Below are positions 1-14,583 of a DNA stretch of 29,590 bases, in pieces (position 1 is the stretch's first letter; every line of letters starts with the position of its first letter). The position numbers and the translations under genes were made by a program. Below the pieces are notes generated by a model. It searched no databases, was not told the origin of the DNA, and saw only the letters and a list, made by a program, of their open reading frames with translations. Source of the DNA: a virus. Lineage: Duplodnaviria > Heunggongvirae > Uroviricota > Caudoviricetes. The DNA lies in the IMG/VR virus record IMGVR_UViG_3300021431_000002; one strand, given 5' to 3'.

Positions 1-103
1 TACACTACCCTCTAAATAGAGGCACTATTAGTTTCCAAGTGAGCCATGTTGTACACCATGCGTCTCGAAACCTAACTATCATCCTCGAATGATTAACCTT
101 TTG

Positions 104-174
104 TAGCCTAGCTAGGAATCGAACCTAGTTTCTCTGCGTGAAAGGCAGTACTCCTACCAATATAGGACAAGGTC
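104..174 (-). tRNA. tRNA-Glu(TTC), degenerate/possible pseudogene
   Basis: GACCTTG-TC-CTATATTGGTAGGAG-T-ACTGC CTTTCAC GCAGA-GAAA-CTAGG TTCGATT CCTAG-CTAGGCT-A. Perfect T arm, but two acceptor mismatches, one D-stem mismatch and one anticodon-stem mismatch. No CCA. Confidence 0.7.
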
Positions 175-253
175 GTGTTAAAAACAAGTATAGAGGCGTA
201 TTTCTATGCCACTTAGTCCAAAGACTAAGAAACGCATATACTTGAAGCATGTT

Positions 254-343
254 TGTCACTTGTGGGAATCGAACCCATATCCGTAGGGCTGGCTTCCCTA
301 CCGCTTTGAATCTTTATGCGCACACCATTAAGCTATCCGCAAC
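254..343 (-). tRNA. tRNA-like relic with TCA triplet and long extra arm (Sec-like geometry, degenerate)
   Basis: TAGCTTAATGGT D-arm-like start; ...GATTCAAAG...; GTAGGG-AAGCCAG-CCCTAC extra arm; TGGG-TTCGATT-CCCA T arm; ~90 nt. Acceptor and anticodon stems are only partly paired. Confidence 0.35.
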
Positions 344-357
344 ACCATTGCTTTTTG

Positions 358-430
358 TAGCCCTAGGGAGGCTCGAACTCCCATTGCCTGCTTGAGAGGC
401 AAGTCTCCTAACCTGTTAGAGGATAGGGCC
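358..430 (-). tRNA. tRNA-Glu(CTC)
   Basis: GGCCCTA/TAGGGCT acceptor, CTCT/GGAG D stem, CTTGC-CTCTCAA-GCAGG anticodon arm, GGGAG-TTCGAGC-CTCCC T arm. No encoded CCA. Confidence 0.92.
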
Positions 431-625
431 ATATAAATATCCACTACGAACTACGAGAGCATGTCTCATGGACTATGACGGTCAACCGAAGTCTTATTAA
501 GTATCACGTGCTACACCGTCAAGACTTTTGTATGTGTAAAGGGAACAGATAAAAATCGTTTTTTCTAAAACCCAAATTTAGTAACTAATTTTTTTAAATT
601 ATTACTTGCTGTGTGTTCCCACTTG

Positions 626-696
626 TAGCGCATAGGGGAATCGAACCCCTGTTCTCACATCGAAAGTGTGGTGTCCTACCACTAGACGAATGCGCC
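626..696 (-). tRNA. tRNA-Glu(TTC)
   Basis: GGCGCAT/ATGCGCT acceptor, GTCT-AGTGGT-AGGAC D arm, CCACA-CTTTCGA-TGTGA anticodon arm, AGGGG-TTCGATT-CCCCT T arm. No encoded CCA. Confidence 0.92.
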
Positions 697-700
697 ATTT

Positions 701-854
701 CTGAAGGGTGGGTAGTTTGTACCTACATTCTTGGAGTAGTAAATCCACTCATGTCCTAACATTTGAACGACCTGCAACACATCTGAATTTATAATGTTAC
801 TGTTTCAAACACTGTTCGCATTGGTATTGAACCATCAGTGTGCCACCCCTTCAA
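701..854 (-). ncRNA. Candidate ~150-nt structured ncRNA (Y RNA/YrlA-like architecture)
   Basis: Begins just after a -33/-7 promoter and ends 4 nt before tRNA-Glu. The ends pair (TTGAAGGG-G-TGG / CCACCCTTCAG: 10 WC pairs, 1 GU, one bulged G). A T-loop-like TGG-TTCAATA-CCA follows the 5' strand, with further internal helices. Confidence 0.55.
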
Positions 855-859
855 CGATG

Positions 860-891
860 CAAAGATATGAAAAAAAATTGGAATAACCAAA
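860..891 (-). promoter_or_regulatory. Bacteroidota-type -33/-7 promoter for the ncRNA/tRNA cluster
   Basis: TTTG (891-888), 20-nt spacer, TATCTTTG (867-860). Confidence 0.85.
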
Positions 892-927
892 TTTTTCGCT
901 AACTTTTAACATATTTAAACGTTTTAA

Positions 928-955
928 GGGTGAACATTCCGTAGATTGTTCACCC
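928..955 (-). terminator. 9-bp hairpin, possible terminator
   Basis: GGGTGAACA / TGTTCACCC inverted repeat; U-tract weak. Confidence 0.4.
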
Positions 956-1025
956 AATATTATATATAATAAACATTATTTGCTAAATAAGGTATATATA
1001 ATAATTATATGATACGAATCTACAC

Positions 1026-1109
1026 TTAACCTACGCACACGCCTCCTAGTCTTGGATATTCATACCCAAGTTCATAAGGCTGTTCTATATGCAGATTAAA
1101 TGTAATCAT
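1026..1109 (-). CDS. Possible 27-aa small ORF (not in ORF track)
   Basis: ATG at 1109 after an A/T-rich leader; MITFNLHIEQPYELGYEYPRLGGVCVG*. No family recognised. Confidence 0.25.
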   Translation of the reverse strand: MITFNLHIEQPYELGYEYPRLGGVCVG

Positions 1110-1181
1110 ATTATTATTAAAATTTGTCGTTTATTATAAATATAAATGTTTTTTAAAAAGTTTCAAGAGAAAATAAAAAAA

Positions 1182-1628
1182 TTATTCTCTTTCGTGTTTA
1201 GATGCTTCATACTCTTCCCAAGATGCCCTAATTTCTGGGGTTATTTCTTGGTAGATATTTGTTCCCTTTGCAATGCCATAAACTTTTTTAGTCCATCCAA
1301 AAATAGTAGACATTGTGCTACCAATCTTAAACCACAATTCGTTTGTGTGACTAGCATCAGAGATTTCCCATACTTGATGTACCATTGGGTACTCATGACC
1401 CATACCATCATCCAAAATACAGAATACCGCATCACCCCTTTTCACATCTATTGGAACACAAGGCGTTATTTTGCAGTACTCCATGTGGTTTATCAATGGC
1501 TGCATAGATGTTCCAGCTTCCCAATGTAAAACAGTTTCGCCATTTTTCAAGGCTTCTGCTATTTCCCATGAGTCTTGAACAACCCTCATTCCATCTATTT
1601 CTCTCGGTTCATTTACAATCTTTTTCAT
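1182..1628 (-). CDS. S24/S26-family peptidase-like protein
   Basis: GTSMQPLI (catalytic Ser motif), GDAVF and PMVHQV (His at the general-base position). ATGA overlap with the upstream gene. Confidence 0.55.
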   Translation of the reverse strand: MKKIVNEPREIDGMRVVQDSWEIAEALKNGETVLHWEAGTSMQPLINHMEYCKITPCVPIDVKRGDAVFCILDDGMGHEYPMVHQVWEISDASHTNELWFKIGSTMSTIFGWTKKVYGIAKGTNIYQEITPEIRASWEEYEASKHERE

Positions 1629-3013
1629 AAATTATTCAATAATTTTTTAAAGTTCTCGTCTACACTTTTTCTATACGCTTTATTGGAAACAATTCTACGT
1701 ATATCACCTAAACCGCTAAGTTTAGACATTGTGCTTAAATCTTCACTGATTATAGTTAATGACTTATCCAATGAATCAAAATAGGTGTCTAATGTATTGA
1801 CAATCATATCAATAGACCCAACACTTCCATTGAAATTCAAATTGGGAATGGGTGGAAAGGAAGGTAATTTCATATGATACCCTCTCATTCTGTCCACTGC
1901 TGCCTCTGCACGTCTGCGCTGTTCCTTTATGCGTTTTTCTTCTTCGGCTATCTTACGTTTACGCTCTTCTTCAATTTTACGTGCTTTCTCAGCCTTTTTT
2001 CTAGCCTTTTCTGCTTTTAAAGCCTCATATTCCTCAACGGTGTATGCCCCTAGTTCATCCCAACTAATTTCAAAAAATTCTGTTGGGTTAATACCTTCTA
2101 GATATTTAGGTTCTACGCCAAAACACCTATCAATTGAATCATAATAGCCATGTTGTGCGTTTCCATATTCCATTTTGAGTCTAATCATAACAAAAATAGT
2201 ATCTTCAGAAGAGATAAAATTAGCATGATTGAACAATAAATTTTTGGGATATACTAATTCAATATCAAGATTTGTATTATCATTGATTACGAATCCGTTT
2301 CCAAATACAATAGGCTCTTTACTTGTAACTCTAATTGTGTCGATAAAATGTTTCTCTGTAATAAGATGCCCACTAGGTGTTAAAACATACCCATCTAAAT
2401 AATCTTTAAACCCATCTAGTCTAAGTAATATAAATCTAATTGTGTTATCAATATCACTAACTGGTGTTGTAGAAAGATTATTTTTATCAAACGGGATTTT
2501 TTCTTTCACCCTAGTCCAAGGAAGATTTTTTGGGAATAATTGTAGCCCCTTCTCATACTCGATTCCATGATAATCACAATCATTTTTAGAGAGGGTAAAA
2601 ACAATCCCTTGTTCTCCAGAAATTTGTTTAACAATCACAGAATTAATGCTAGTCCCGTAAAAATCGTCTACGACTTTTACTAACTTATAGACTTTCTCCT
2701 CCATTTCAAATCCATCACAAGAAACCCCTTTCAAAGAATAATTTTCCCCTTCAATAAATTTAGGGGAAAATTTCTCTGATTCGTCAATAACACCTAAGTT
2801 AGTGAAATCAACAGCTTCAAATAGATTTTTAGGCTGAGTATATAATTTCTCTACTTTTTCTTTACTATTTGTATCCTCTATAGTGTTTTCAACTGTTAGC
2901 CAATCCATAACATATTTCATATCATCCATAGGACTTAAATATTCCAATTTTTTTGAAAAATTAATTAGGATATTTTTAGGCCTTTCAATACGTGGTGGAG
3001 TCACTTTTCCCAT
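1625..3013 (-). CDS. Hypothetical protein, 462 aa, with charged coiled coil near the C-terminus
   Basis: Long ORF, TAATG-coupled to telA; E/K/R-rich helix (KAEKARKKAEKARKIEEERKRK). Confidence 0.85.
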   Translation of the reverse strand: MGKVTPPRIERPKNILINFSKKLEYLSPMDDMKYVMDWLTVENTIEDTNSKEKVEKLYTQPKNLFEAVDFTNLGVIDESEKFSPKFIEGENYSLKGVSCDGFEMEEKVYKLVKVVDDFYGTSINSVIVKQISGEQGIVFTLSKNDCDYHGIEYEKGLQLFPKNLPWTRVKEKIPFDKNNLSTTPVSDIDNTIRFILLRLDGFKDYLDGYVLTPSGHLITEKHFIDTIRVTSKEPIVFGNGFVINDNTNLDIELVYPKNLLFNHANFISSEDTIFVMIRLKMEYGNAQHGYYDSIDRCFGVEPKYLEGINPTEFFEISWDELGAYTVEEYEALKAEKARKKAEKARKIEEERKRKIAEEEKRIKEQRRRAEAAVDRMRGYHMKLPSFPPIPNLNFNGSVGSIDMIVNTLDTYFDSLDKSLTIISEDLSTMSKLSGLGDIRRIVSNKAYRKSVDENFKKLLNNL

Positions 3014-4314
3014 TATTCTTCAAGAAGTCTATCTTTTCCTTTCAATTCTTTTGCAATAACCCTCTGGGTTGAAGTGGCAACACCAATTGCAGTCTGAGAC
3101 ATCTGTTTTTCGAGTTTAAACAACTCTGCCTCAGCAGCAGCACGTTTCTGAGCACCCTCTTGCTGTGCTTTCTGTACACCCTCAACGGTAGCAAGAAGGT
3201 CTGCTGTTGTTTTACGAAGAGTCTCAATGTCGATTACTGTACGCTGATTCTGTTTAGCAACCTCAATGGCTTGCGTCTTCATCATTTCAGCGTTTTTCTT
3301 GAATATCTCGTTTGTTGTTTCAGAAACCTTACTACTTATCTCAAGCGTCTGTTTCTGGTCATACAAGGCAACAGCCAATGAAAGCTGATTCTTCCAAAGA
3401 GGAATTGTCATAGCAATCTGTTGCTCAGTATTATTAGCGTTCATGATATTTGTACGCTGGATAATACGAATCTGTGTCAATGACTGCTTGAATGCATAAC
3501 GAAGCATTGTAAGGTCTGTGAGACGTTTATCAAGAGAATTCTTATACTCTTCCACATCGCTAATCTGATAGTCATCATACTCTTCAGAATTAGTCTTCAT
3601 ATCATCAATGAGTTTGTCAAGTTCTTGAGACTTTATCTTACCAGCGATGATAAGCTCTCCAAGTTGCTCTACATAGTCGACATTATTCTCAAATTGTTTC
3701 TGCAAGAGATTGTTATCACGAATCGAAATCTGACGAGCAGTTTCCAATTTCTTCACAATACCATCAATATTTTTTTCAATGGTATCATATTTTGCTTTAA
3801 TTTGTTCTACGCTAACAACAAGTTTACGGAGTCCTGGAATCTTCCTCAAAAACCTTTTAACAGCACTAGGTGCTTCAAGGTCATCAATATTAACTTCATG
3901 CAACTCGCCAAGAAGATTTGAAATGAGTTCTGCTGATTCGATGCTGTTTTTTGAGTCGAAAGTCTGTTTCAAAAAGTCACTAGAATATGTATCCATTGCT
4001 CTCTGAAGGTCAGAACCATAACTAGCAATGCTAGTCAAGTCTTTTTCGTCAAGAACCTTTGCAATCTCGTTGTAATATGCTTTTTTCTGGCTTGAAATTG
4101 TTGTCAAATCTATCTCCCCATCATCAGACAACCTTGTTCTTGGCACATTAGGTGTTTCGCTTTCACCGTTAAGTTCGTTTTCTACTTCTTGGGTGATTGC
4201 CTCTACCTCTGCCTTTTTCTCTTTTGCATTTCGCTTAACAGTAGCTTTACGCTTTGGTTTAACTTCCTTTACTTCTACGTCGACTAATGTCTCTTCATTT
4301 ACCTTTTTTGCCAT
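3013..4314 (-). CDS. telA: Toxic anion resistance protein (TelA/KlaB family)
   Basis: SIASYGSDLQ, L..LL..L, QIKAKYDTIEKNIDGI, L.RDN..L, QIRIIQRTN, MTIPLWKNQL..A, LRKN-like FKKNAEMMK and VIDIETL motifs typical of TelA. Confidence 0.85.
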   Translation of the reverse strand: MAKKVNEETLVDVEVKEVKPKRKATVKRNAKEKKAEVEAITQEVENELNGESETPNVPRTRLSDDGEIDLTTISSQKKAYYNEIAKVLDEKDLTSIASYGSDLQRAMDTYSSDFLKQTFDSKNSIESAELISNLLGELHEVNIDDLEAPSAVKRFLRKIPGLRKLVVSVEQIKAKYDTIEKNIDGIVKKLETARQISIRDNNLLQKQFENNVDYVEQLGELIIAGKIKSQELDKLIDDMKTNSEEYDDYQISDVEEYKNSLDKRLTDLTMLRYAFKQSLTQIRIIQRTNIMNANNTEQQIAMTIPLWKNQLSLAVALYDQKQTLEISSKVSETTNEIFKKNAEMMKTQAIEVAKQNQRTVIDIETLRKTTADLLATVEGVQKAQQEGAQKRAAAEAELFKLEKQMSQTAIGVATSTQRVIAKELKGKDRLLEE

Positions 4315-5314: not shown

Positions 5315-5353
5315 AAAAAAAAATGAGAGAGAATTAAAAATCCTCACTCATTT
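5315..5353 (-). terminator. Intrinsic terminator overlapping the rtcB stop
   Basis: AAATGAG...CTCATTT stem with inner pairs, followed by a U-run. Confidence 0.65.
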
Positions 5354-6708
5354 ATCTTTTTGGTATCTGAAGCTTTTATGTTCATGCGAGGTTTCATCAT
5401 ATACAGAACACTGACTGTAGGTTCTATCAGTTTGATTATTTCCTCATAAGGTTTATACGCTGCTGGGGATTCATCTAATGTTGAAGCGTCTGCTGTAGTA
5501 GTGTATACTCCTGCTGCCTCCATAGTAGCCTTAAAATCTTCAATATTAAGCTGTTCTTTTGCTTTACTGCGACTGAGGCATCTACCACAGCCATGTGGGG
5601 CTGTATAGTTCCAATCCTCGTTTGACTTACCCTCACAAATTGATATACCATCCATCATATTAAACGGTATGATAACTCTTTCGCCCTCGTAAGCACGAAT
5701 AGCGCCTTTACGAATCATCATATTTGGCTTACCCGTCAATGCCTTAAGGTCATAGTCGATGTAGTTGTGTGTTGTGTGTATCGTATCAATCACATTAACT
5801 CCCTTCGCCATTTTTCTGTATATCTCAACAACTTGCTCAATGATAACATCATGGTTCAAACGAGCATATTCTTGGGCAAGTAACACATCTACTAAATAGC
5901 CCATAAGATTTTCCCCACTAAGGTATCCAGGAATCTTCTTTGAAAGGTACTCTTCTTTTGCAGCCTTTAACTCAGTGCTCAAATTCCTTTTATCAGTGTT
6001 TTTGAGTTTCACCGAATCAGTAAGTGCTTTCATTTCCTCTTTGGTAATGGTCATACTCTTGGCAATTTTATTCCAATAGTTAAACACCTTCAACCCTAGG
6101 TTACGAGAGCCACAATGAACACATACGCAATATTTGCCTAATTCATCGTTAACATCATATTCAAGGAAATGATTACCTCCACCAACTGAGCCAATAGACT
6201 TGAGAAACGTTCCATAATCCATATTGAACTTTCCGCACCAGTTTTCCAAATCTCTCTCGTTGGAAAATTCTACTCGATATGGTGCAAGTTGCGGATAACA
6301 CGAACACATACGGTTAAGTACAGAGTTGAAACGTTTAATAATGGTTTTAATATCAGCTTTCTTTTTATCATTAATATCAAAACCAAAAGGTATTACCTTT
6401 CTGATTTTATGCTCAAACTCTTTCATATCTTCTGCCGACAATTCCCTATCAAAGAAAACTGCTGAAATCGTGCAACCAATATCACAGCCTACGTGCTCTG
6501 GATTAACATGGTCTTTTTCAAGATTAATTGGGCAAGAAAAACCAATGACAATACCTTTACCATCATGGCAATCTGGCATTATCCTTATTTTTCTATCCTT
6601 AAATGCAATACAATCTGCAATGCGATATATAGTTGATAATGCTGATTCCTCAACGTTATCTGTAAAAACCTTTACGTCCTTACAATATTGTCCTTTTATC
6701 TCAATCAT
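5344..6708 (-). CDS. rtcB: RtcB family RNA 3'-phosphate/5'-OH ligase
   Basis: IMPDCH, VGCDIGC, GSVGGGNHFLE, HCGSRNLG, HNY, RKGA, IIPFNM, APHGCGR and DESPAAYK motifs. Confidence 0.95.
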   Translation of the reverse strand: MIEIKGQYCKDVKVFTDNVEESALSTIYRIADCIAFKDRKIRIMPDCHDGKGIVIGFSCPINLEKDHVNPEHVGCDIGCTISAVFFDRELSAEDMKEFEHKIRKVIPFGFDINDKKKADIKTIIKRFNSVLNRMCSCYPQLAPYRVEFSNERDLENWCGKFNMDYGTFLKSIGSVGGGNHFLEYDVNDELGKYCVCVHCGSRNLGLKVFNYWNKIAKSMTITKEEMKALTDSVKLKNTDKRNLSTELKAAKEEYLSKKIPGYLSGENLMGYLVDVLLAQEYARLNHDVIIEQVVEIYRKMAKGVNVIDTIHTTHNYIDYDLKALTGKPNMMIRKGAIRAYEGERVIIPFNMMDGISICEGKSNEDWNYTAPHGCGRCLSRSKAKEQLNIEDFKATMEAAGVYTTTADASTLDESPAAYKPYEEIIKLIEPTVSVLYMMKPRMNIKASDTKKINE

Positions 6709-6769: not shown

Positions 6770-7207
6770 CTATTTTAACTTTTTCAACTCATTTAATGCG
6801 TATTCACAAGCATTATACAACTTTTCGTCCTCAAATATCTTTTTCAGAATTTTGTCCTTACGTTCATCAGATGTTGAAAGTTTATAACCTTTAATAAGTG
6901 CTAATACCGTAGCAAATGGTCTTGTGTTCACCGTAATAAACTCTTTATTACCCATTTTACGATACACACTAACAGATTCAAATTCGTCAACCCAAGCTGG
7001 ACGATTAGCTTTTATTTCTGCTAGCCTTACACTAGCACCACCTTCATCGAAATATTCCCATGCTTCGTTAATGTTAGTTGTGAGTTGATATTCCACATAA
7101 CTCATGAGGACTCCATCACACATTTTCCGTTCTGTTGACCAATTTTTAAAATAGCTAGTTACGCCATCTTTATCGATAAATTTGATTAAAAATCTACTTT
7201 TTGCCAT
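6770..7207 (-). CDS. Hypothetical protein, 145 aa
   Basis: Co-directional ORF in the rtcB transcription unit. Confidence 0.75.
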   Translation of the reverse strand: MAKSRFLIKFIDKDGVTSYFKNWSTERKMCDGVLMSYVEYQLTTNINEAWEYFDEGGASVRLAEIKANRPAWVDEFESVSVYRKMGNKEFITVNTRPFATVLALIKGYKLSTSDERKDKILKKIFEDEKLYNACEYALNELKKLK

Positions 7208-11958: not shown

Positions 11959-12004
11959 AGTTCAATTATTACCATCTTATTCATTATATAAATATTAGTA
12001 ATAA

Positions 12005-12166
12005 TCAGAAAGACTCTACATAAACCATTAATCTTTTTTTCCTCATAATGGTTTCAGAAATTGCAGCCATTTGTGTGCTGCTAATTCCATATTTTTTAGA
12101 AGGGGTTGTTGTTTTCCCTCTTTTCCTTTTCCTACTTGATTTACTTTTCTTGAAAAAAAAGAACAT
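12005..12166 (-). CDS. Small basic protein, 53 aa (not in ORF track)
   Basis: MFFFFKKSKSSRKRKRGKTTTPSKKYGISSTQMAAISETIMRKKRLMVYVESF*; first ATG after the promoter at 12195. Confidence 0.5.
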   Translation of the reverse strand: MFFFFKKSKSSRKRKRGKTTTPSKKYGISSTQMAAISETIMRKKRLMVYVESF

Positions 12167-12194
12167 AGTTTATACAAATATTATTTCGTTTTTG

Positions 12195-12225
12195 CAAATA
12201 TATGAAAAATATGCCACTTAACAAA
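12195..12225 (-). promoter_or_regulatory. -33/-7 promoter for the endonuclease-tyrS unit
   Basis: TTTG (12225-12222), N19, TATATTTG (12202-12195). Confidence 0.75.
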
Positions 12226-12297: not shown

Positions 12298-13974
12298 TTA
12301 GAGATTAACATATGTAAGAATCTCTTGGTTAAGAGCCTTCGCAACCAACTCTTCCGCAGTCATTTGTCGTACCTCACCAGTTTTCTCGTCAACAACTTTA
12401 GTCTCTCCCATCAACATAGTAATGATTGAAGGGTCAAAACCACTAAGGAAAGTACACCCAGGCTCGATACTTTTACCCTCATAATGGGTGTTACCATGTC
12501 TAGAAGCGCAATCCCACCAAATGAACTTCATGTTGTCCACGAACTCTTCAGGGAATACAGTCTTCAACGACTTCACAGAATACTCATAGTTAGTTGGCTC
12601 TGAACGTTTTGAGCTCCAACCATAATTAACTGGATTGAACTGCATATCGCTCACAACCAAGATAGTTGTAGGATACTGCTCAAGAGGGATTTCTGGATGC
12701 TTCTTCCTAATGTCGATAATCACATCAACTGCTGATTGGAAGTTTGTGCCACCACAACCTACACTAGGTAAGTTCATGATGCGGTCACAGAATGAATCAC
12801 CAACCATATCGTATGGAGTAGAAACATTATCGAACATAATGACCTTATTGTGGAAAGGACCAGTGTTCAAGTCAGAGAAAAACAAAGCAAGCGAACTTGC
12901 AATATCCTCGCAAGTGATGTCATTAAGACCATCCACTCGTTTATTCATTGAACCGCTAGTATCCAAACAGCACCATACGTTCTCAGTAATCTTGCCATCA
13001 GCACGAGCCTTATCAACAAGACCCTTAAACTGTGCGTCAAGAGTATGCTTTACCTCAACTGGTATGGTCTTTGGTGCGCTGTAATAGCCTCTGCTGCCAC
13101 GAGCCTCACGAAGCTTACGTGCAAGCTCGAAAACGTAACCAGTGAACTTAGCAACTGGCTGCTGCATAATCCACTTTGTATAAGTGTCTCTCAAATTGTG
13201 ATTAGAAAGGAACTTGCTAGTCACAAGAAGGTTAAGGGCACGACCTGGAATATGATTCCAATTCAAAGCATCATAGTTACGAGAACAAATGAGCTTTTGG
13301 AATGTATGCGCATTACCACTACTCTTTGTCTTGTTGTACTCCTTGTAAGAAATACCCATGAAAGATGCAAATGCCTTTGCAAGGTCATTCGTTATCTTGT
13401 TCCAATCAGTCGTACACTTGCTACGGCTCTCAATACGAGGCATATACTTCTTAACAAGGTCAACGTGAGTGTCGCAAAGCAAACCTTGTGCGATAATCTC
13501 GAACATTGCCTTTTGATTGATGACATTCAAATCCTCTTTGATGTCATAGAACATAAGAGTCCACATGTCCTTCCATGAACCGACAAGTGGCAATGCCCAA
13601 ATGTTGTTATAGAAAGCCTCTGGCTTCTCTTTTGCAATCCAAAGCAAACGCTTGAACGACTCATCACGAGCACCTTGTCCATTCTGAACCTTATCGGTTT
13701 CATTGTCAGCGTTCACCTTGACCTTACGTGTTACCATACGGAGGTAAAATGGAAAACGCAAAGCAGCCTCTGCATTCTCCTCCCAAATACGAGATTGGTC
13801 AGCAAAGACCTCCTCAATTGGACGGCCTCTGAAATTACCAGCCTTACCAAACTGGTCAACAATTGCGCTGCCAGTCGTAACATTTGTTACTGCACCATTC
13901 TCTGTCAAAGTTGTAGACCTAAAGTTTGCTGCATTAATAAATGCGTTTGTCTTTGTTGCTGTCTTTGTATTCAT
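12298..13974 (-). CDS. DUF2828-family protein (TROVE/Ro-like helical domain + vWA), 558 aa; start revised to MNTKTAT
   Basis: N-terminal TLTENGA motif, D.FGK, GQGAR, WKD, KYMPR, W..IPGRA; C-terminal vWA with MIDAS LDTSGSM, GGTNF and VVSDMQF. The ORF-track start (14130) runs through the promoter. Confidence 0.8.
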   Translation of the reverse strand: MNTKTATKTNAFINAANFRSTTLTENGAVTNVTTGSAIVDQFGKAGNFRGRPIEEVFADQSRIWEENAEAALRFPFYLRMVTRKVKVNADNETDKVQNGQGARDESFKRLLWIAKEKPEAFYNNIWALPLVGSWKDMWTLMFYDIKEDLNVINQKAMFEIIAQGLLCDTHVDLVKKYMPRIESRSKCTTDWNKITNDLAKAFASFMGISYKEYNKTKSSGNAHTFQKLICSRNYDALNWNHIPGRALNLLVTSKFLSNHNLRDTYTKWIMQQPVAKFTGYVFELARKLREARGSRGYYSAPKTIPVEVKHTLDAQFKGLVDKARADGKITENVWCCLDTSGSMNKRVDGLNDITCEDIASSLALFFSDLNTGPFHNKVIMFDNVSTPYDMVGDSFCDRIMNLPSVGCGGTNFQSAVDVIIDIRKKHPEIPLEQYPTTILVVSDMQFNPVNYGWSSKRSEPTNYEYSVKSLKTVFPEEFVDNMKFIWWDCASRHGNTHYEGKSIEPGCTFLSGFDPSIITMLMGETKVVDEKTGEVRQMTAEELVAKALNQEILTYVNL

Positions 13975-14006
13975 ATGCTTATTTTTGTTGTTTTCAAATC
14001 GTAATG

Positions 14007-14038
14007 CAAAGATATGAAAAAAAATTGGAATAACCAAA
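14007..14038 (-). promoter_or_regulatory. -33/-7 promoter of the DUF2828 gene (identical to the ncRNA promoter)
   Basis: TTTG (14038-14035), N20, TATCTTTG (14014-14007); 14005-14039 equals 858-892 at 35/35 nt. Confidence 0.85.
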
Positions 14039-14103
14039 TGTTTTAACACTTTTTTTGCAATAAAATGATATTTATGGTATATAACGTTATAAATAAAATT
14101 AAT

Positions 14104-14583
14104 ATGAATAGAATAGATAATATTATCCAAAAAACAATTAGTGAGTGCGTTAACAGAGAGATACTTTCAGAAAGTGTACTTGATGACATTAAAAACTTGC
14201 TAAAAGCATATAAAGGAAAATCAAACCTATCTAGTGAGGATTTGAGAAAAGAACGTCAGTTAAAAAAGAAAGCTGAAAAAGAGAAAAAAGGAACAAAGAA
14301 ACTTCGTAGAACAAAAAACGGTGGTAAAATGTATTACGACTATAACGACTACGAAAGAAAACATAGAAAAATTAGTAAAGGTGATTCAGATAGCATTAAA
14401 AATACAGTAGACATGGAAAACACCGATATTGCTGCTGTGGCAAGAAGTGTATTTCCAGACCATACAGAAGAGGGTGCTCAATCTCAACTTCGTAAAATTC
14501 TTACTGGAGAACGCCCAATGACAAAAGATGTCGCATCCAAATTAGAGAAAATGATTTCAAGAGGGCAAATTGCTGTTAAATAA
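14104..14583 (+). CDS. Basic protein with C-terminal XRE-like helix-turn-helix; only credible plus-strand gene
   Basis: IAAVARSVF..TEEGAQSQLRKILTGERPMTKDVASKL resembles an XRE HTH. Start taken at ATG 14104; own terminator follows the stop. Confidence 0.7.
   Translation: MNRIDNIIQKTISECVNREILSESVLDDIKNLLKAYKGKSNLSSEDLRKERQLKKKAEKEKKGTKKLRRTKNGGKMYYDYNDYERKHRKISKGDSDSIKNTVDMENTDIAAVARSVFPDHTEEGAQSQLRKILTGERPMTKDVASKLEKMISRGQIAVK

What the first reader, a model, noticed from the sequence alone, without database searches (positions are those of the whole stretch)
701..854. Promoter-driven ~150-nt ncRNA with Y-RNA/YrlA-like layout
Seen: the element starts a few nt after a -7 box and ends 4 nt before tRNA-Glu(TTC). 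Its ends form a ~11-bp helix with a single bulged G. A T-loop-like hairpin (TGG-TTCAATA-CCA, 834-822) directly follows the 5' strand. After it come a multi-helix stem (TGTTTGAA/TTCAAATG enclosing GTAACA/TGTTGC) and a GG-containing hairpin (GAGTG-GATTTAC-TACTC). Known: bacterial YrlA Y RNAs are circularly permuted tRNA mimics (terminal Ro-binding stem, then T, acceptor-like and D arms) and occur with Ro60/Rsr and RtcB. Inference: this could be a phage Y-like RNA, released from the tRNA precursor by RNase P. A 6S-like sigma decoy or a structured leader are alternatives.
Basis: partly seen in the sequence, partly recalled or inferred. Interest (0 to 1): 0.8.

Follow-up and report, generated by a model that had tools for sequence, protein, structure and literature searches.

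The report
tRNA-shaped small RNA heading phage tRNA island
The 154-base stretch is a real, conserved structured RNA gene at the head of a giant rumen phage's tRNA island, but it is a tRNA-shaped RNA of a new family and unknown partner, not the Y RNA it was taken for; the phage's true Y-like RNAs lie elsewhere.

Summary
Window 854..701 (- strand) is a real RNA gene. It starts 5 nt after a Bacteroidota-type promoter and ends 4 nt before a tRNA. About 30 sequence variants occur in rumen and gut phage contigs, in short (86-103 nt), intermediate and long (150-169 nt) forms.

Covariation supports a cloverleaf:
- a terminal stem;
- a D-like hairpin with invariant loop AAAUGUUA;
- a variable hairpin;
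- a T-like hairpin with invariant loop GUACAAA that abuts the 3' strand.

Long forms, including this one, add a three-way-junction domain.

The YrlA reading fails:
- Rfam's YrlA model finds nothing here, yet it hits another RNA of the same genome (41 bits).
- Eight "stem + CAGCAA" RNAs, some with the permuted T-acceptor-D layout, lie in the tRNA island. One is at window 541-620.
- These CAGCAA RNAs accompany the Ro60-fold DUF2828 gene in 6 of 6 related genomes. The element is in 2 of 6.

Best reading: a tRNA-derived, non-decoding tRNA mimic processed with the tRNAs, comparable to T4 species 1 RNA. Its partner is unknown.

Earlier notes of this scan had not seen this family on other DNA. They had seen CAGCAA-handle RNAs beside DUF2828 genes in many phages.

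The parts
860..891 (-). Bacteroidota-type promoter: -33 TTTG (891-888), 20-nt spacer, -7 box TAtcTTTG (867-860). The element starts 5 nt downstream.
   Evidence: The same motif recurs 12 times on the gene strand of the window. The exact 35-mer occurs only twice in the 295-kb genome, here and before the Ro60-like gene. RNA and DNA contigs from many places break at 855-857 and 893-896, as expected of a repeated promoter.
701..854 (-). The RNA gene (long form, 154 nt): terminal stem P1, a three-way-junction insertion, and hairpins A, B and C.
   Evidence: Homologues are 84% identical in L010, with sharp homology borders at the element's ends. About 30 variants were found. There is one copy in the genome.
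847..854 (-). P1, 5' strand (UUGAAGGG).
   Evidence: It pairs with 701-708. Relatives have quite different but complementary strands: GUCCAAA.GGA/UCC.UUUGGAC, GAUGAAGG/CUUUCAUC, AAAUAGAGAA/UUCUCUAUUU, UGGAGGG/CCCUCCA.
701..708 (-). P1, 3' strand (CCCUUCAG).
   Evidence: In the structure-fitted alignment 10 of 11 P1 pairs show changes on both sides.
777..843 (-). Insertion domain, found in long forms only. It is a three-way junction made of stem GCAC.CUGA/UCAG..GUGU (843-835 with 786-777), hairpin GUUC/GAAC (832-814, loop AAUACCAAUGC) and hairpin GUGUU/AACAU (812-794).
   Evidence: RNAalifold predicted it without input from me. Pair counts: the helices are 89.5%, 100% and 98% paired, with compensatory changes. 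The domain is absent from the short forms.
753..768 (-). Hairpin A, D-arm-like: a 3-4 bp stem with the invariant loop (C)AAAUGUUA(G).
   Evidence: The loop is invariant in all members. The stem covaries (GCU/AGC, GGU/ACC, GUU/GAC, GUC/GAC).
734..750 (-). Hairpin B (GAGUGG/CUACUC), in the place of the anticodon arm. Its length, sequence and loop vary among members.
   Evidence: Examples are AAUAAG/CUUAUU against AGCAA/UUGCU. There is no conserved 7-nt loop.
712..726 (-). Hairpin C, T-arm-like: a 4-bp stem (GUAG/CUAC) with the invariant 7-nt loop GUACAAA, close to the P1 3' strand (3 nt away here, directly abutting in short forms).
   Evidence: 100% paired in 31 members, and 3 of 4 pairs show changes on both sides (GUGG/CCAC, ACAG/CUGU, GCAG/CUGC).
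625..696 (-). The tRNA that follows after a 4-nt spacer (697-700). It is Glu-UUC by the Rfam alignment and Arg-TCG by ARAGORN. Its 5' processing would set the element's 3' end.
   Evidence: In 13 members a tRNA follows within 4-19 nt. In two minimal forms the element starts 0-1 nt after a tRNA.
541..620 (-). Context, not part of the element: one of eight 'stem + CAGCAA' RNAs of this genome (GGGAACA-CA-CAGCAA ... UGUUCCC). These are the better candidates for Y-like partners of the Ro60-fold protein.
   Evidence: A sister copy in the genome gets a 41-bit Rfam YrlA hit.
12298..14037 (-). Context: DUF2828/DUF7788/vWA gene, a Ro60-fold ring protein. The called start overlaps its own promoter (14038-14007), so the true start is probably about 30 codons further in.
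5344..6708 (-). Context: RtcB RNA ligase gene.

Best explanation
The element is the gene for a tRNA-derived, non-decoding small RNA. It is the first unit of the phage's tRNA island, which holds about 40 tRNAs, a tmRNA and eight Y-like RNAs.

Transcription starts at the Bacteroidota-type promoter, so the RNA's 5' end lies in or next to the terminal stem. Where the element follows a tRNA in other phages, tRNA-type processing would set that end instead. RNase P cleavage of the next tRNA, 4 nt downstream, frees the 3' end.

The RNA folds as a cloverleaf in the normal tRNA order: an acceptor-like terminal stem, a D-like arm, a variable arm in the anticodon position, and a T-like arm stacked on the terminal stem. 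The two invariant loops (AAAUGUUA and GUACAAA) probably meet to form a tRNA-like elbow. Long forms carry an extra three-way-junction domain between the terminal stem and the D-like arm.

It most likely works in trans as a tRNA mimic, bound by a protein or enzyme that recognises tRNA shape. It would then act as a decoy, competitor or adaptor during infection.

Shown here: the gene, its family, its structure and its position. Inferred: the processing, the elbow and the trans-acting mimic role. The partner is unknown.
For: - Homology borders coincide with the element's ends.
- About 30 variants occur in rumen and gut phage contigs.
- The stems covary while the two loops are invariant. RNAalifold predicted the stems on MAFFT alignments without input from me.
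- Arm order and sizes resemble tRNA: a 4-bp D-like stem with an 8-nt loop that begins and ends in A, and a 4-bp T-like stem with a 7-nt loop that abuts the 3' strand of the terminal stem.
- The 5' part of the short forms resembles a tRNA D region in sequence.
- With filters off, the family model aligns end to end on 5 of the 8 T4 tRNAs among its weak hits.
- It always lies on the tRNA strand inside tRNA arrays. Spacers to the next tRNA are 4-19 nt in 13 members, and 0-1 nt after a tRNA in 2 members.
- The downstream neighbour varies (tRNA, small ORF), which argues against a gene-specific leader.
- T4 rnaC, a stable RNA in the T4 tRNA cluster, has the same plan of terminal stem plus a T arm abutting the 3' strand.
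- Metatranscriptome assemblies hold the stretch at 99-100% identity. This is weak evidence, because DNA carry-over is not excluded.
Against: - The tRNA model RF00005 and ARAGORN do not recognise it.
- The loops lack the canonical G18-G19 and T-Psi-C bases, and the terminal stem is 8-11 bp rather than 7. The elbow is therefore an inference.
- No discrete RNA species, RNA ends or partner have been shown. Contigs cannot show them.
- The element is missing from 4 of 6 closely related genomes, so it is dispensable.
- In most members it starts at a transcription start, which also fits a cis-acting leader.
Confidence: 0.5

Rival explanations
1. It is a cis-acting leader module of the tRNA-island transcript. 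A promoter-proximal structured RNA would either protect the 5' end of the primary transcript from 5'-end-dependent decay, or modify RNA polymerase for processive read-through of the long, highly structured tRNA array, in the manner of HK022 put or EAR elements.
For: In about 24 of 30 members the terminal stem starts 5-6 nt after the -7 box, at the expected transcription start. The downstream units differ (tRNAs or small ORFs), as expected of an element that acts on the transcript or the polymerase rather than on one gene. It heads a region of about 40 kb with about 40 tRNAs on one strand.
Against: In L141 and L143 it sits directly behind a tRNA inside an array. In L010 it lies behind a small ORF about 200 nt from the promoter. 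The island has many internal promoters of the same type. Two invariant loops in a tRNA-like frame go beyond what end protection needs. No expression platform follows it, since the next tRNA is only 4 nt away.
Confidence: 0.15
2. It is a Y RNA: the RNA partner of the phage's Ro60-fold DUF2828 protein, working with RtcB in RNA repair or quality control.
For: - The DUF2828 protein is predicted to fold like Ro60 over its full length. The 13 best PDB matches are all Ro60/TROVE, and a profile search also puts Ro60 first.
- RtcB lies 4.5 kb away.
- The element is tRNA-like with paired ends, as D. radiodurans Yrn1 is described to be (PMC4201824).
- Its 35-nt promoter is identical to that of the Ro60-like gene and occurs nowhere else in the genome. 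In G005 the two promoters are 33/35 identical.
Against: - There is no YrlA hit at E <= 10, while the same model hits another RNA of this genome at 41 bits.
- The Ro motif is absent.
- The 5' strand of the terminal stem is not conserved in sequence.
- It lies 11.4 kb and a dozen ORFs from the Ro60-like gene.
- Four relatives (three of them at least 95% complete) keep the Ro60-like gene and RtcB but lack the element.
- The stem + CAGCAA RNAs, some with the true permuted layout, are present in 6 of 6 genomes and fill that role better.
Confidence: 0.08
3. It is a decaying tRNA gene or other relic with no function of its own.
For: It has a tRNA-like plan without a conserved anticodon loop. It is absent from several close relatives. 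Odd tRNA-like genes are common in these arrays.
Against: Two loops are invariant across about 30 variants while every stem covaries, which is the signature of selection on structure. The family spans at least two phage lineages with different terminal stems.
Confidence: 0.04
4. It is a 6S-like decoy of the sigma factor and RNA polymerase.
For: The phage encodes its own sigma-70-type factor, and the RNA is about 150 nt long.
Against: There is no Rfam 6S hit at E <= 10. The conserved structure is a multi-branched cloverleaf, not a long rod with a central open-promoter-like bubble.
Confidence: 0.01

Closest known systems
Phage T4 species 1 RNA (rnaC) and species 2 RNA (rnaD), small stable RNAs of the T4 tRNA cluster
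   Same: They are encoded inside a phage tRNA array on the tRNA strand, 1-6 nt from their neighbours, and are 119-139 nt long. rnaC folds with a terminal stem and a T arm abutting the 3' strand. The T4 record annotates them only as small, stable RNAs, with no function given.
   Different: There is no sequence or model similarity: the family model scores at most 10 bits in the T4 region. T4 rnaC keeps a canonical T loop (GGUUCGAAUCC), whereas this family has GUACAAA. The hosts and phage lineages differ.
Bacterial and phage YrlA Y RNAs (Rfam RF02553; Chen et al. 2014, PMC4201824; Thermus phage phiLo Yrl1/2, PMC12135203)
   Same: Both are small RNAs with paired 5' and 3' ends and a tRNA-like module, in a genome that also encodes a Ro60-fold protein and RtcB.
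   Different: The arm order is not permuted. There are no canonical T and D loops and no GNCGAAN0-1G or CGAA bulge motif. The gene is not adjacent to the Ro60-like gene and does not follow that gene's distribution. The RF02553 model does not match it, but does match another RNA of the same genome.
Deinococcus radiodurans Yrn1
   Same: As described in PMC4201824, the stem-loop between the D-like and T-like parts takes the anticodon-arm position, with the ends forming the long stem. That is the same order as here.
   Different: Yrn1 is encoded beside rsr and carries the Rsr-binding motif in its stem. Neither holds here.
Transfer RNA
   Same: A four-way junction with arms in tRNA order and of tRNA-like sizes. 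The 5' part resembles a D region in sequence. It is placed and spaced like a tRNA gene in the array.
   Different: There is no conserved anticodon loop. The terminal stem is 8-11 bp. The loops are non-canonical. It is not detected by RF00005 or ARAGORN. Long forms carry a 67-nt extra domain.
Stem + CAGCAA 'handle' RNAs seen beside DUF2828 genes in earlier notes of this scan (I know of no published description)
   Same: They share the tRNA island and the strand, and also have a covarying closing stem around a tRNA-like or variable body.
   Different: The element lacks the GGRWAC-NN-A-CAGCAA handle and occurs in only 2 of 6 genomes. The handle RNAs occur in 6 of 6 genomes, at 4 to 8 copies each.

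Membership tests
YrlA / bacterial Y RNA (Rfam RF02553) | Match to the RF02553 covariance model | tested here: not met
   No hit at E <= 10 on window 1-1200 or on 697-860. The same model gives 41.4 bits, E 3.8e-7 and a full-length match (1-114) on G000 259293-259418, so the test can detect Y-like RNAs in this genome.
YrlA / bacterial Y RNA (Rfam RF02553) | Nearly invariant T and D stem-loops with tRNA-type loop bases | tested here: not met
   The proposed T hairpin's closing pair is kept in 4 of 11 relatives. The conserved loops are AAAUGUUA and GUACAAA, not GG- or TPsiC-type.
YrlA / bacterial Y RNA (Rfam RF02553) | Permuted order: 5' stem, (V), T arm, acceptor-like stem-loop, D arm, 3' stem | tested here: not met
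   The order is D-like, variable, T-like.
YrlA / bacterial Y RNA (Rfam RF02553) | GNCGAAN0-1G motif near the 5' end (PMC4201824) | tested here: not met
   Absent from the window's copy. Present in 3 of 30 members, against 1.6 expected from shuffles.
YrlA / bacterial Y RNA (Rfam RF02553) | Encoded next to, and co-occurring with, the Ro60 gene | tested here: not met
   It lies 11.4 kb away. The Ro60-like gene is in 6 of 6 genomes and the element in 2 of 6.
YrlA / bacterial Y RNA (Rfam RF02553) | Bound by the Ro60 protein | not testable with these tools
   This needs a pull-down or gel-shift assay with the DUF2828 protein.
tRNA (RF00005) | Recognised by tRNA models | tested here: not met
   ARAGORN and RF00005 find nothing at the element, even at E <= 10, in either the long or the short form.
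tRNA (RF00005) | Cloverleaf topology in the order acceptor, D, anticodon, T | tested here: met
   Four-way junction with covarying stems: a 4-bp stem with 8-nt loop, then a variable arm, then a 4-bp stem with 7-nt loop abutting the 3' strand. The terminal stem is 8-11 bp, not 7.
tRNA (RF00005) | Conserved 7-nt anticodon loop | tested here: not met
   The loops of hairpin B are 5-11 nt long and unrelated in sequence.
6S RNA (RF00013) | Long rod with a central bubble, and a match to the Rfam model | tested here: not met
   No hit. The structure is multi-branched.
T4-type stable RNAs of phage tRNA clusters (rnaC/rnaD) | Non-tRNA stable RNA gene inside a phage tRNA array, a few nt from its neighbours | tested here: met
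   Stability of the RNA itself has not been shown.
T4-type stable RNAs of phage tRNA clusters (rnaC/rnaD) | Sequence or structure homology to rnaC or rnaD | tested here: not met
   Family model R2 with filters off scores at most 10.3 bits, and none of its hits falls on rnaC or rnaD on their strand.
Stem + CAGCAA handle RNAs (a lead from this scan's notes) | Closing stem followed by the CAGCAA motif (here GGRWACNNACAGCAA) | tested here: not met
   The element and its family lack the motif. Eight other RNAs of the genome carry it.

The most novel reading that the evidence does not exclude
This is a new class of phage tRNA mimic, with a modular build of a tRNA-shaped core plus an optional three-way-junction domain. 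It would be made at the start of infection from the tRNA-island promoter, to occupy or redirect a tRNA-recognising factor of host or phage. That factor could be a tRNA-targeting defence nuclease, RNase P, or the phage's degenerate TyrRS-like protein. The mimic would thus be a second RNA-based arm, beside the Ro60-like protein with its CAGCAA RNAs, of the phage's tRNA protection and repair programme.
Probability: 0.2. Interest if true: 0.8.

Novelty: new variant of a known kind. Interest (0 to 1): 0.5.

Why it matters
Non-tRNA stable RNAs inside phage tRNA clusters are already on record: T4's rnaC and rnaD are annotated simply as small stable RNAs. Here is a second, unrelated family of the same kind. 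It has about 30 natural variants, clear covariation, two invariant loops and three size classes, which gives a ready-made mutational map for experiments.

The element sits in giant rumen phages that also carry a Ro60-fold protein, RtcB, a tmRNA, about 40 tRNAs and true Y-like RNAs. This genome can therefore be used to separate what Y-like RNAs do from what other tRNA mimics do.

The work also corrects the record: the Y-like RNAs of this phage are the stem + CAGCAA RNAs, not this element.

Tried and rejected
- Rfam at gathering and at E <= 10 on the window, on the element alone and on a short form gave nothing but the tRNAs and chance hits.
- blastn of window 1-1200 against GenBank phages matched only the tRNA. 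tblastn with the neighbouring 462-aa protein found only weak Lak-phage matches.
- MAFFT of short and long forms together misaligned them, so the two classes were analysed separately.
- The model built from short forms finds long forms only through their 3' core. P1 of the long forms is therefore not properly aligned in A5.
- Laying RNA-library contigs on window 1-1700 showed cover of the element. It cannot show ends, strand or expression level, and parts without cover mean nothing.
- No Y-like RNA was evident beside the Ro60-like gene. The 340-nt gap downstream holds a terminator-like hairpin, a promoter and a small ORF.
- phmmer of the DUF2828 protein against PDB sequences found nothing. Only the profile search and the fold search showed Ro60.
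- A literature search for DUF2828 gave no phage paper. The catalogue of 10,006 candidate viral RNAs (PMC10690425) holds no searchable supplement, so I cannot say whether this family is listed there.
- I considered hammerhead, HDV-like, K-turn/box C/D and sarcin-ricin readings of the CUGAUGG...GCGAAC segment by eye and dropped them. The core residues do not fit, and the ribozyme families in Rfam gave no hit on the element.
- My first fetch of the Ro60-like promoters in relatives used coordinates too far upstream and missed them. The second fetch found them.

Full report
**Where the window lies.** The window is the last 29.6 kb of a 295,155-bp IMG/VR phage record with direct terminal repeats. 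All credible genes run on the - strand. The window encodes:
- a DUF2828/DUF7788/vWA protein;
- RtcB, TelA, SSB, a NAD synthase and a TyrRS-like protein;
- IF3, a sigma-70-type factor, DnaK and DnaJ.

Promoters are of the Bacteroidota type (TTTG, about 20 nt, TAnnTTTG) and recur 12 times on the gene strand. Runs that hold the stretch are sheep and cattle gut metagenomes. Just below the window begins a tRNA island. Rfam finds 38 tRNAs and a tmRNA between about 150 and 266 kb of the genome, nearly all of them from 225 kb on, plus three more tRNAs in the window. All are on the - strand, and there is no Rfam hit at gathering level for any Y RNA. In the direction of transcription, the element is the first unit of this island.

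**The observation.**
- On the - strand the element runs 854..701. It starts 5 nt after the -7 box (867-860) and ends 4 nt before a tRNA (696..625).
ARAGORN shifts the anticodon stem by one base and calls it Arg-TCG.
- The ends pair (UUGAAGGG/CCCUUCAG).
- On its own the sequence folds no better than shuffles (z = -1.6), so the case rests on relatives.

**Relatives.**
- The neighbouring 148-aa protein led to 16 related loci. One of them (L010) holds an 84%-identical copy, and the similarity starts and stops exactly at the element's ends.
- Reading the same intergenic region in the other loci showed a shorter RNA (about 95 nt) behind the same promoter. It shares the paired ends, an AAAUGUUAG box and a GGUACAAAC hairpin.
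- A strict pattern built from these two boxes found 7 IMG/VR stretches and 31 metagenome stretches, giving about 30 distinct sequences.
- They fall into short (86-103 nt), intermediate (108-130 nt) and long (150-169 nt) forms. The window's copy is a long form.

**Structure.**
- RNAalifold on plain MAFFT alignments, with no input from me, predicts in the short forms a terminal stem P1, a 4-bp hairpin with loop AAAUGUUA, and a 4-bp hairpin with loop GUACAAA that abuts the P1 3' strand. Each short form also folds a variable hairpin between the two.
- In the long forms RNAalifold adds a three-way junction between P1 and the first hairpin. It consists of a stem GCAC.CUGA/UCAG..GUGU enclosing the hairpins GUUC/GAAC and GUGYU/ARCAU.
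- On the 11 long forms this comparative model has 84.3% of cells paired and a covariation score of 0.200, against 0.140 in shuffles (0 of 500 as high) and at most 0.10 for slid partners.
Its 'T-loop' hairpin keeps the closing G-C in only 4 of 11 sequences. The same bases form GUUC/GAAC, which is ACUC/GAGU in L145, a change on both sides of two pairs.
- On 31 members aligned to a model of the short forms, 88.3% of cells pair (66.8% in shuffles). 24 of 28 pairs show changes on both sides, and the score is 0.455 against 0.164. That alignment is fitted to the structure and leans towards it.
- P1 differs almost completely between groups yet stays complementary. The single bulged G is not conserved: other members have G.G, G.A or a U-A pair there.

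**What the fold resembles.**
- The core is a four-way junction in the normal tRNA order: terminal stem, D-like arm (4 bp including U.G, with an 8-nt loop that begins and ends in A), a variable arm in the anticodon position, a 6-7 nt linker, and a T-like arm (4 bp, 7-nt loop) stacked against the 3' strand.
- The 5' part of the short forms (GGGAUAGAGCUUAAAUGUUAGAGCG) reads like a worn tRNA D region. Compare UAGCUCAGUUGGAUAGAGCA in an RNA of the same genome.
- With filters off, the family model aligns end to end on 5 of the 8 T4 tRNAs among its weak hits.
- The tRNA programs do not accept the element. Hairpin B has no conserved loop. I therefore regard it as a tRNA-derived mimic, not a decoding tRNA.
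- That the two invariant loops touch, as D and T loops do, is my inference.

**Test of the Y-RNA reading: the protein.** The premise about the protein holds.
- A profile of 67 diverse homologues puts Ro60 first among PDB sequences (E 4.7e-4, vWA part).
- An AlphaFold model (pLDDT 89.5, pTM 0.90) matches Ro60 over its full length. The 13 best PDB matches are frog and human Ro60, Deinococcus Rsr and the Ro60 of Thermus phage phiLo (best E 4e-10, TM 0.54/0.58).

**Test of the Y-RNA reading: the RNA.** The RNA does not fit.
- There is no RF02553 hit at E <= 10.
- There is no GNCGAAN0-1G motif. It occurs in 3 of 30 members, against 1.6 expected by chance (motif from PMC4201824).
- The arms are in unpermuted order.
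- The Ro60-like gene lies 11.4 kb away.
- In five relatives (four at least 95% complete) the Ro60-like gene and RtcB are always present. The family model and a relaxed loop pattern find the element only in G005.
- One point in favour remains. The element's 35-nt promoter is identical to that of the Ro60-like gene and unique to these two places among about 33 similar promoters. The pair is 33/35 identical in G005 and less alike in two genomes without the element.

**The phage's real Y-like RNAs.**
- Earlier notes of this scan describe 'stem + CAGCAA' RNAs beside DUF2828 genes in many phages. I treated this as a lead and tested it.
- The pattern GGRWACNNACAGCAA occurs 8 times in this genome, against 0 for the reversed control. 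All 8 are on the - strand in the tRNA island. Each is closed by the complementary strand 65-146 nt downstream, and the stems covary.
- One copy is at window 541-620, just past the tRNA that follows the element.
- Some carry a T arm, an acceptor-like hairpin and a D arm in the permuted YrlA order. One of these gets a full-length RF02553 hit of 41.4 bits (E 3.8e-7, below the gathering score of 69).
- The five relatives have 4-7 copies each, with controls at 0. Most arrays that hold the element also hold these RNAs.
- The genome therefore has Y-like RNAs that follow the Ro60-like gene, and the element is not one of them.

**Position and processing.**
- In 13 members a tRNA follows within 4-19 nt.
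- In 7 or so members a small ORF follows instead.
- In L010 the element lies behind a small ORF.
- In two minimal forms from another phage lineage it begins 0-1 nt after a tRNA.
- In about 24 of 30 members P1 begins at the expected transcription start.

This pattern fits a self-contained unit handled like a tRNA: RNase P acting on the next tRNA frees its 3' end, and tRNA-type cuts free it where it lies inside an array. That is inference. Metatranscriptome assemblies contain the stretch (for example a 269-nt contig covering 707-975 at 100% identity), but contigs cannot show ends or exclude DNA.

**Most likely mechanism and rivals.**
- tRNA-derived mimic made with the tRNAs and acting in trans through its tRNA-like shape, partner unknown: 0.5.
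- cis-acting leader (5'-end protection or processive antitermination): 0.15.
- Y RNA of the Ro60-like protein: 0.08.
- Relic without function: 0.04. This is contradicted by invariant loops combined with covarying stems.
- 6S-like decoy: 0.01.

**Comparison and novelty.** The closest analogue by position and plan is T4 species 1 RNA (rnaC), which sits 6 nt from rnaD in the T4 tRNA cluster. It folds with a terminal stem and a T arm against the 3' strand, but shows no homology to this family. The family is not in Rfam 15, and I found no paper describing it. It may be hidden in a large unannotated catalogue that I could not search. I rate it a new variant of a known kind.

Noticed in passing
window 541-620 (-); G000 265332-265404, 261615-261742, 261188-261297, 259300-259445, 248726-248853, 244338-244409, 242282-242346 (-): Eight RNAs share the handle GGRWAC-NN-A-CAGCAA and are closed by the complementary strand. 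Several carry T arm, acceptor-like hairpin and D arm in the permuted YrlA order. One gets a 41-bit Rfam YrlA hit. Five relatives have 4-7 copies each, with controls at 0. These are the likely partners of the Ro60-fold protein.
   Followed up: partly
window 625-696 (-): The tRNA next to the element is ambiguous. Rfam's alignment gives loop CUUUCGA (Glu-UUC, with a C.A mismatch at the top of the anticodon stem). ARAGORN shifts by one base and calls Arg-TCG. The same ambiguity recurs in L010, L013, L146 and L162.
   Followed up: partly
window 858-892 and 14005-14039 (-): The exact 35-nt promoter occurs only at these two places in the 295-kb genome: before the element and before the Ro60-like gene. 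It belongs to a family of about 33 similar promoters. In G005 the two corresponding promoters are 33/35 identical.
   Followed up: partly
window 12298-14130 (-): The called start of the Ro60-like ORF overlaps its own promoter (14038-14007). Residues 1-30 of the model have pLDDT below 50, and relatives start at MNTKT about 20-40 nt after the promoter. The true start is probably further in.
   Followed up: partly
window 1026-1109 (-): A 27-codon ORF (MITFNLHIEQP...) lies between the 148-aa gene and the element's promoter. It is conserved at the same place in nearly all related loci.
   Followed up: no
window 928-955 (-): An 8-bp hairpin (GGGUGAAC ... GUUCACCC) lies just upstream of the promoter. 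It is conserved, with changed but still complementary arms, in the related loci. It may be a terminator or a promoter-linked element.
   Followed up: no
L006:7104-7180, L007 about 3134-3210, L008 about 6830-6905: A tRNA-like sequence (GUCCGUAUAGUUUAAAAGUAGAAC...CUCUCAA...GGGGCAGUACCU) has a Glu-CUC-like anticodon loop but a non-canonical T loop. ARAGORN does not call it. It follows the element or the promoter directly.
   Followed up: no
related loci L005, L008-L018, L137, L146, L147, L154, L158, L159: ARAGORN repeatedly reports 'tRNA-???' genes with a two-base anticodon (tt) at the same place in the arrays. It also reports CTA-anticodon ('Pyl') tRNAs in L143 and L160. These are possible unusual or suppressor tRNAs.
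   Followed up: no
G000 about 243189-243516 (-): A phage-encoded tmRNA lies inside the tRNA island (Rfam RF00023, 78.8 bits).
   Followed up: no
window 11959-12195 (-): The transcript leader and small ORF downstream of the Ro60-like gene fold much better than shuffles (z = -4.4). This is partly long A-run/U-run pairing, and the meaning is unclear.
   Followed up: no
window 814-832 versus hairpin A of the short forms: The GUUC...GCGAAC hairpin of the long-form insertion resembles the D-like arm plus GCGAA of the short forms in sequence and in distance from the 5' end. MAFFT aligned the two. The insertion may have arisen by partial duplication of the core.
   Followed up: no
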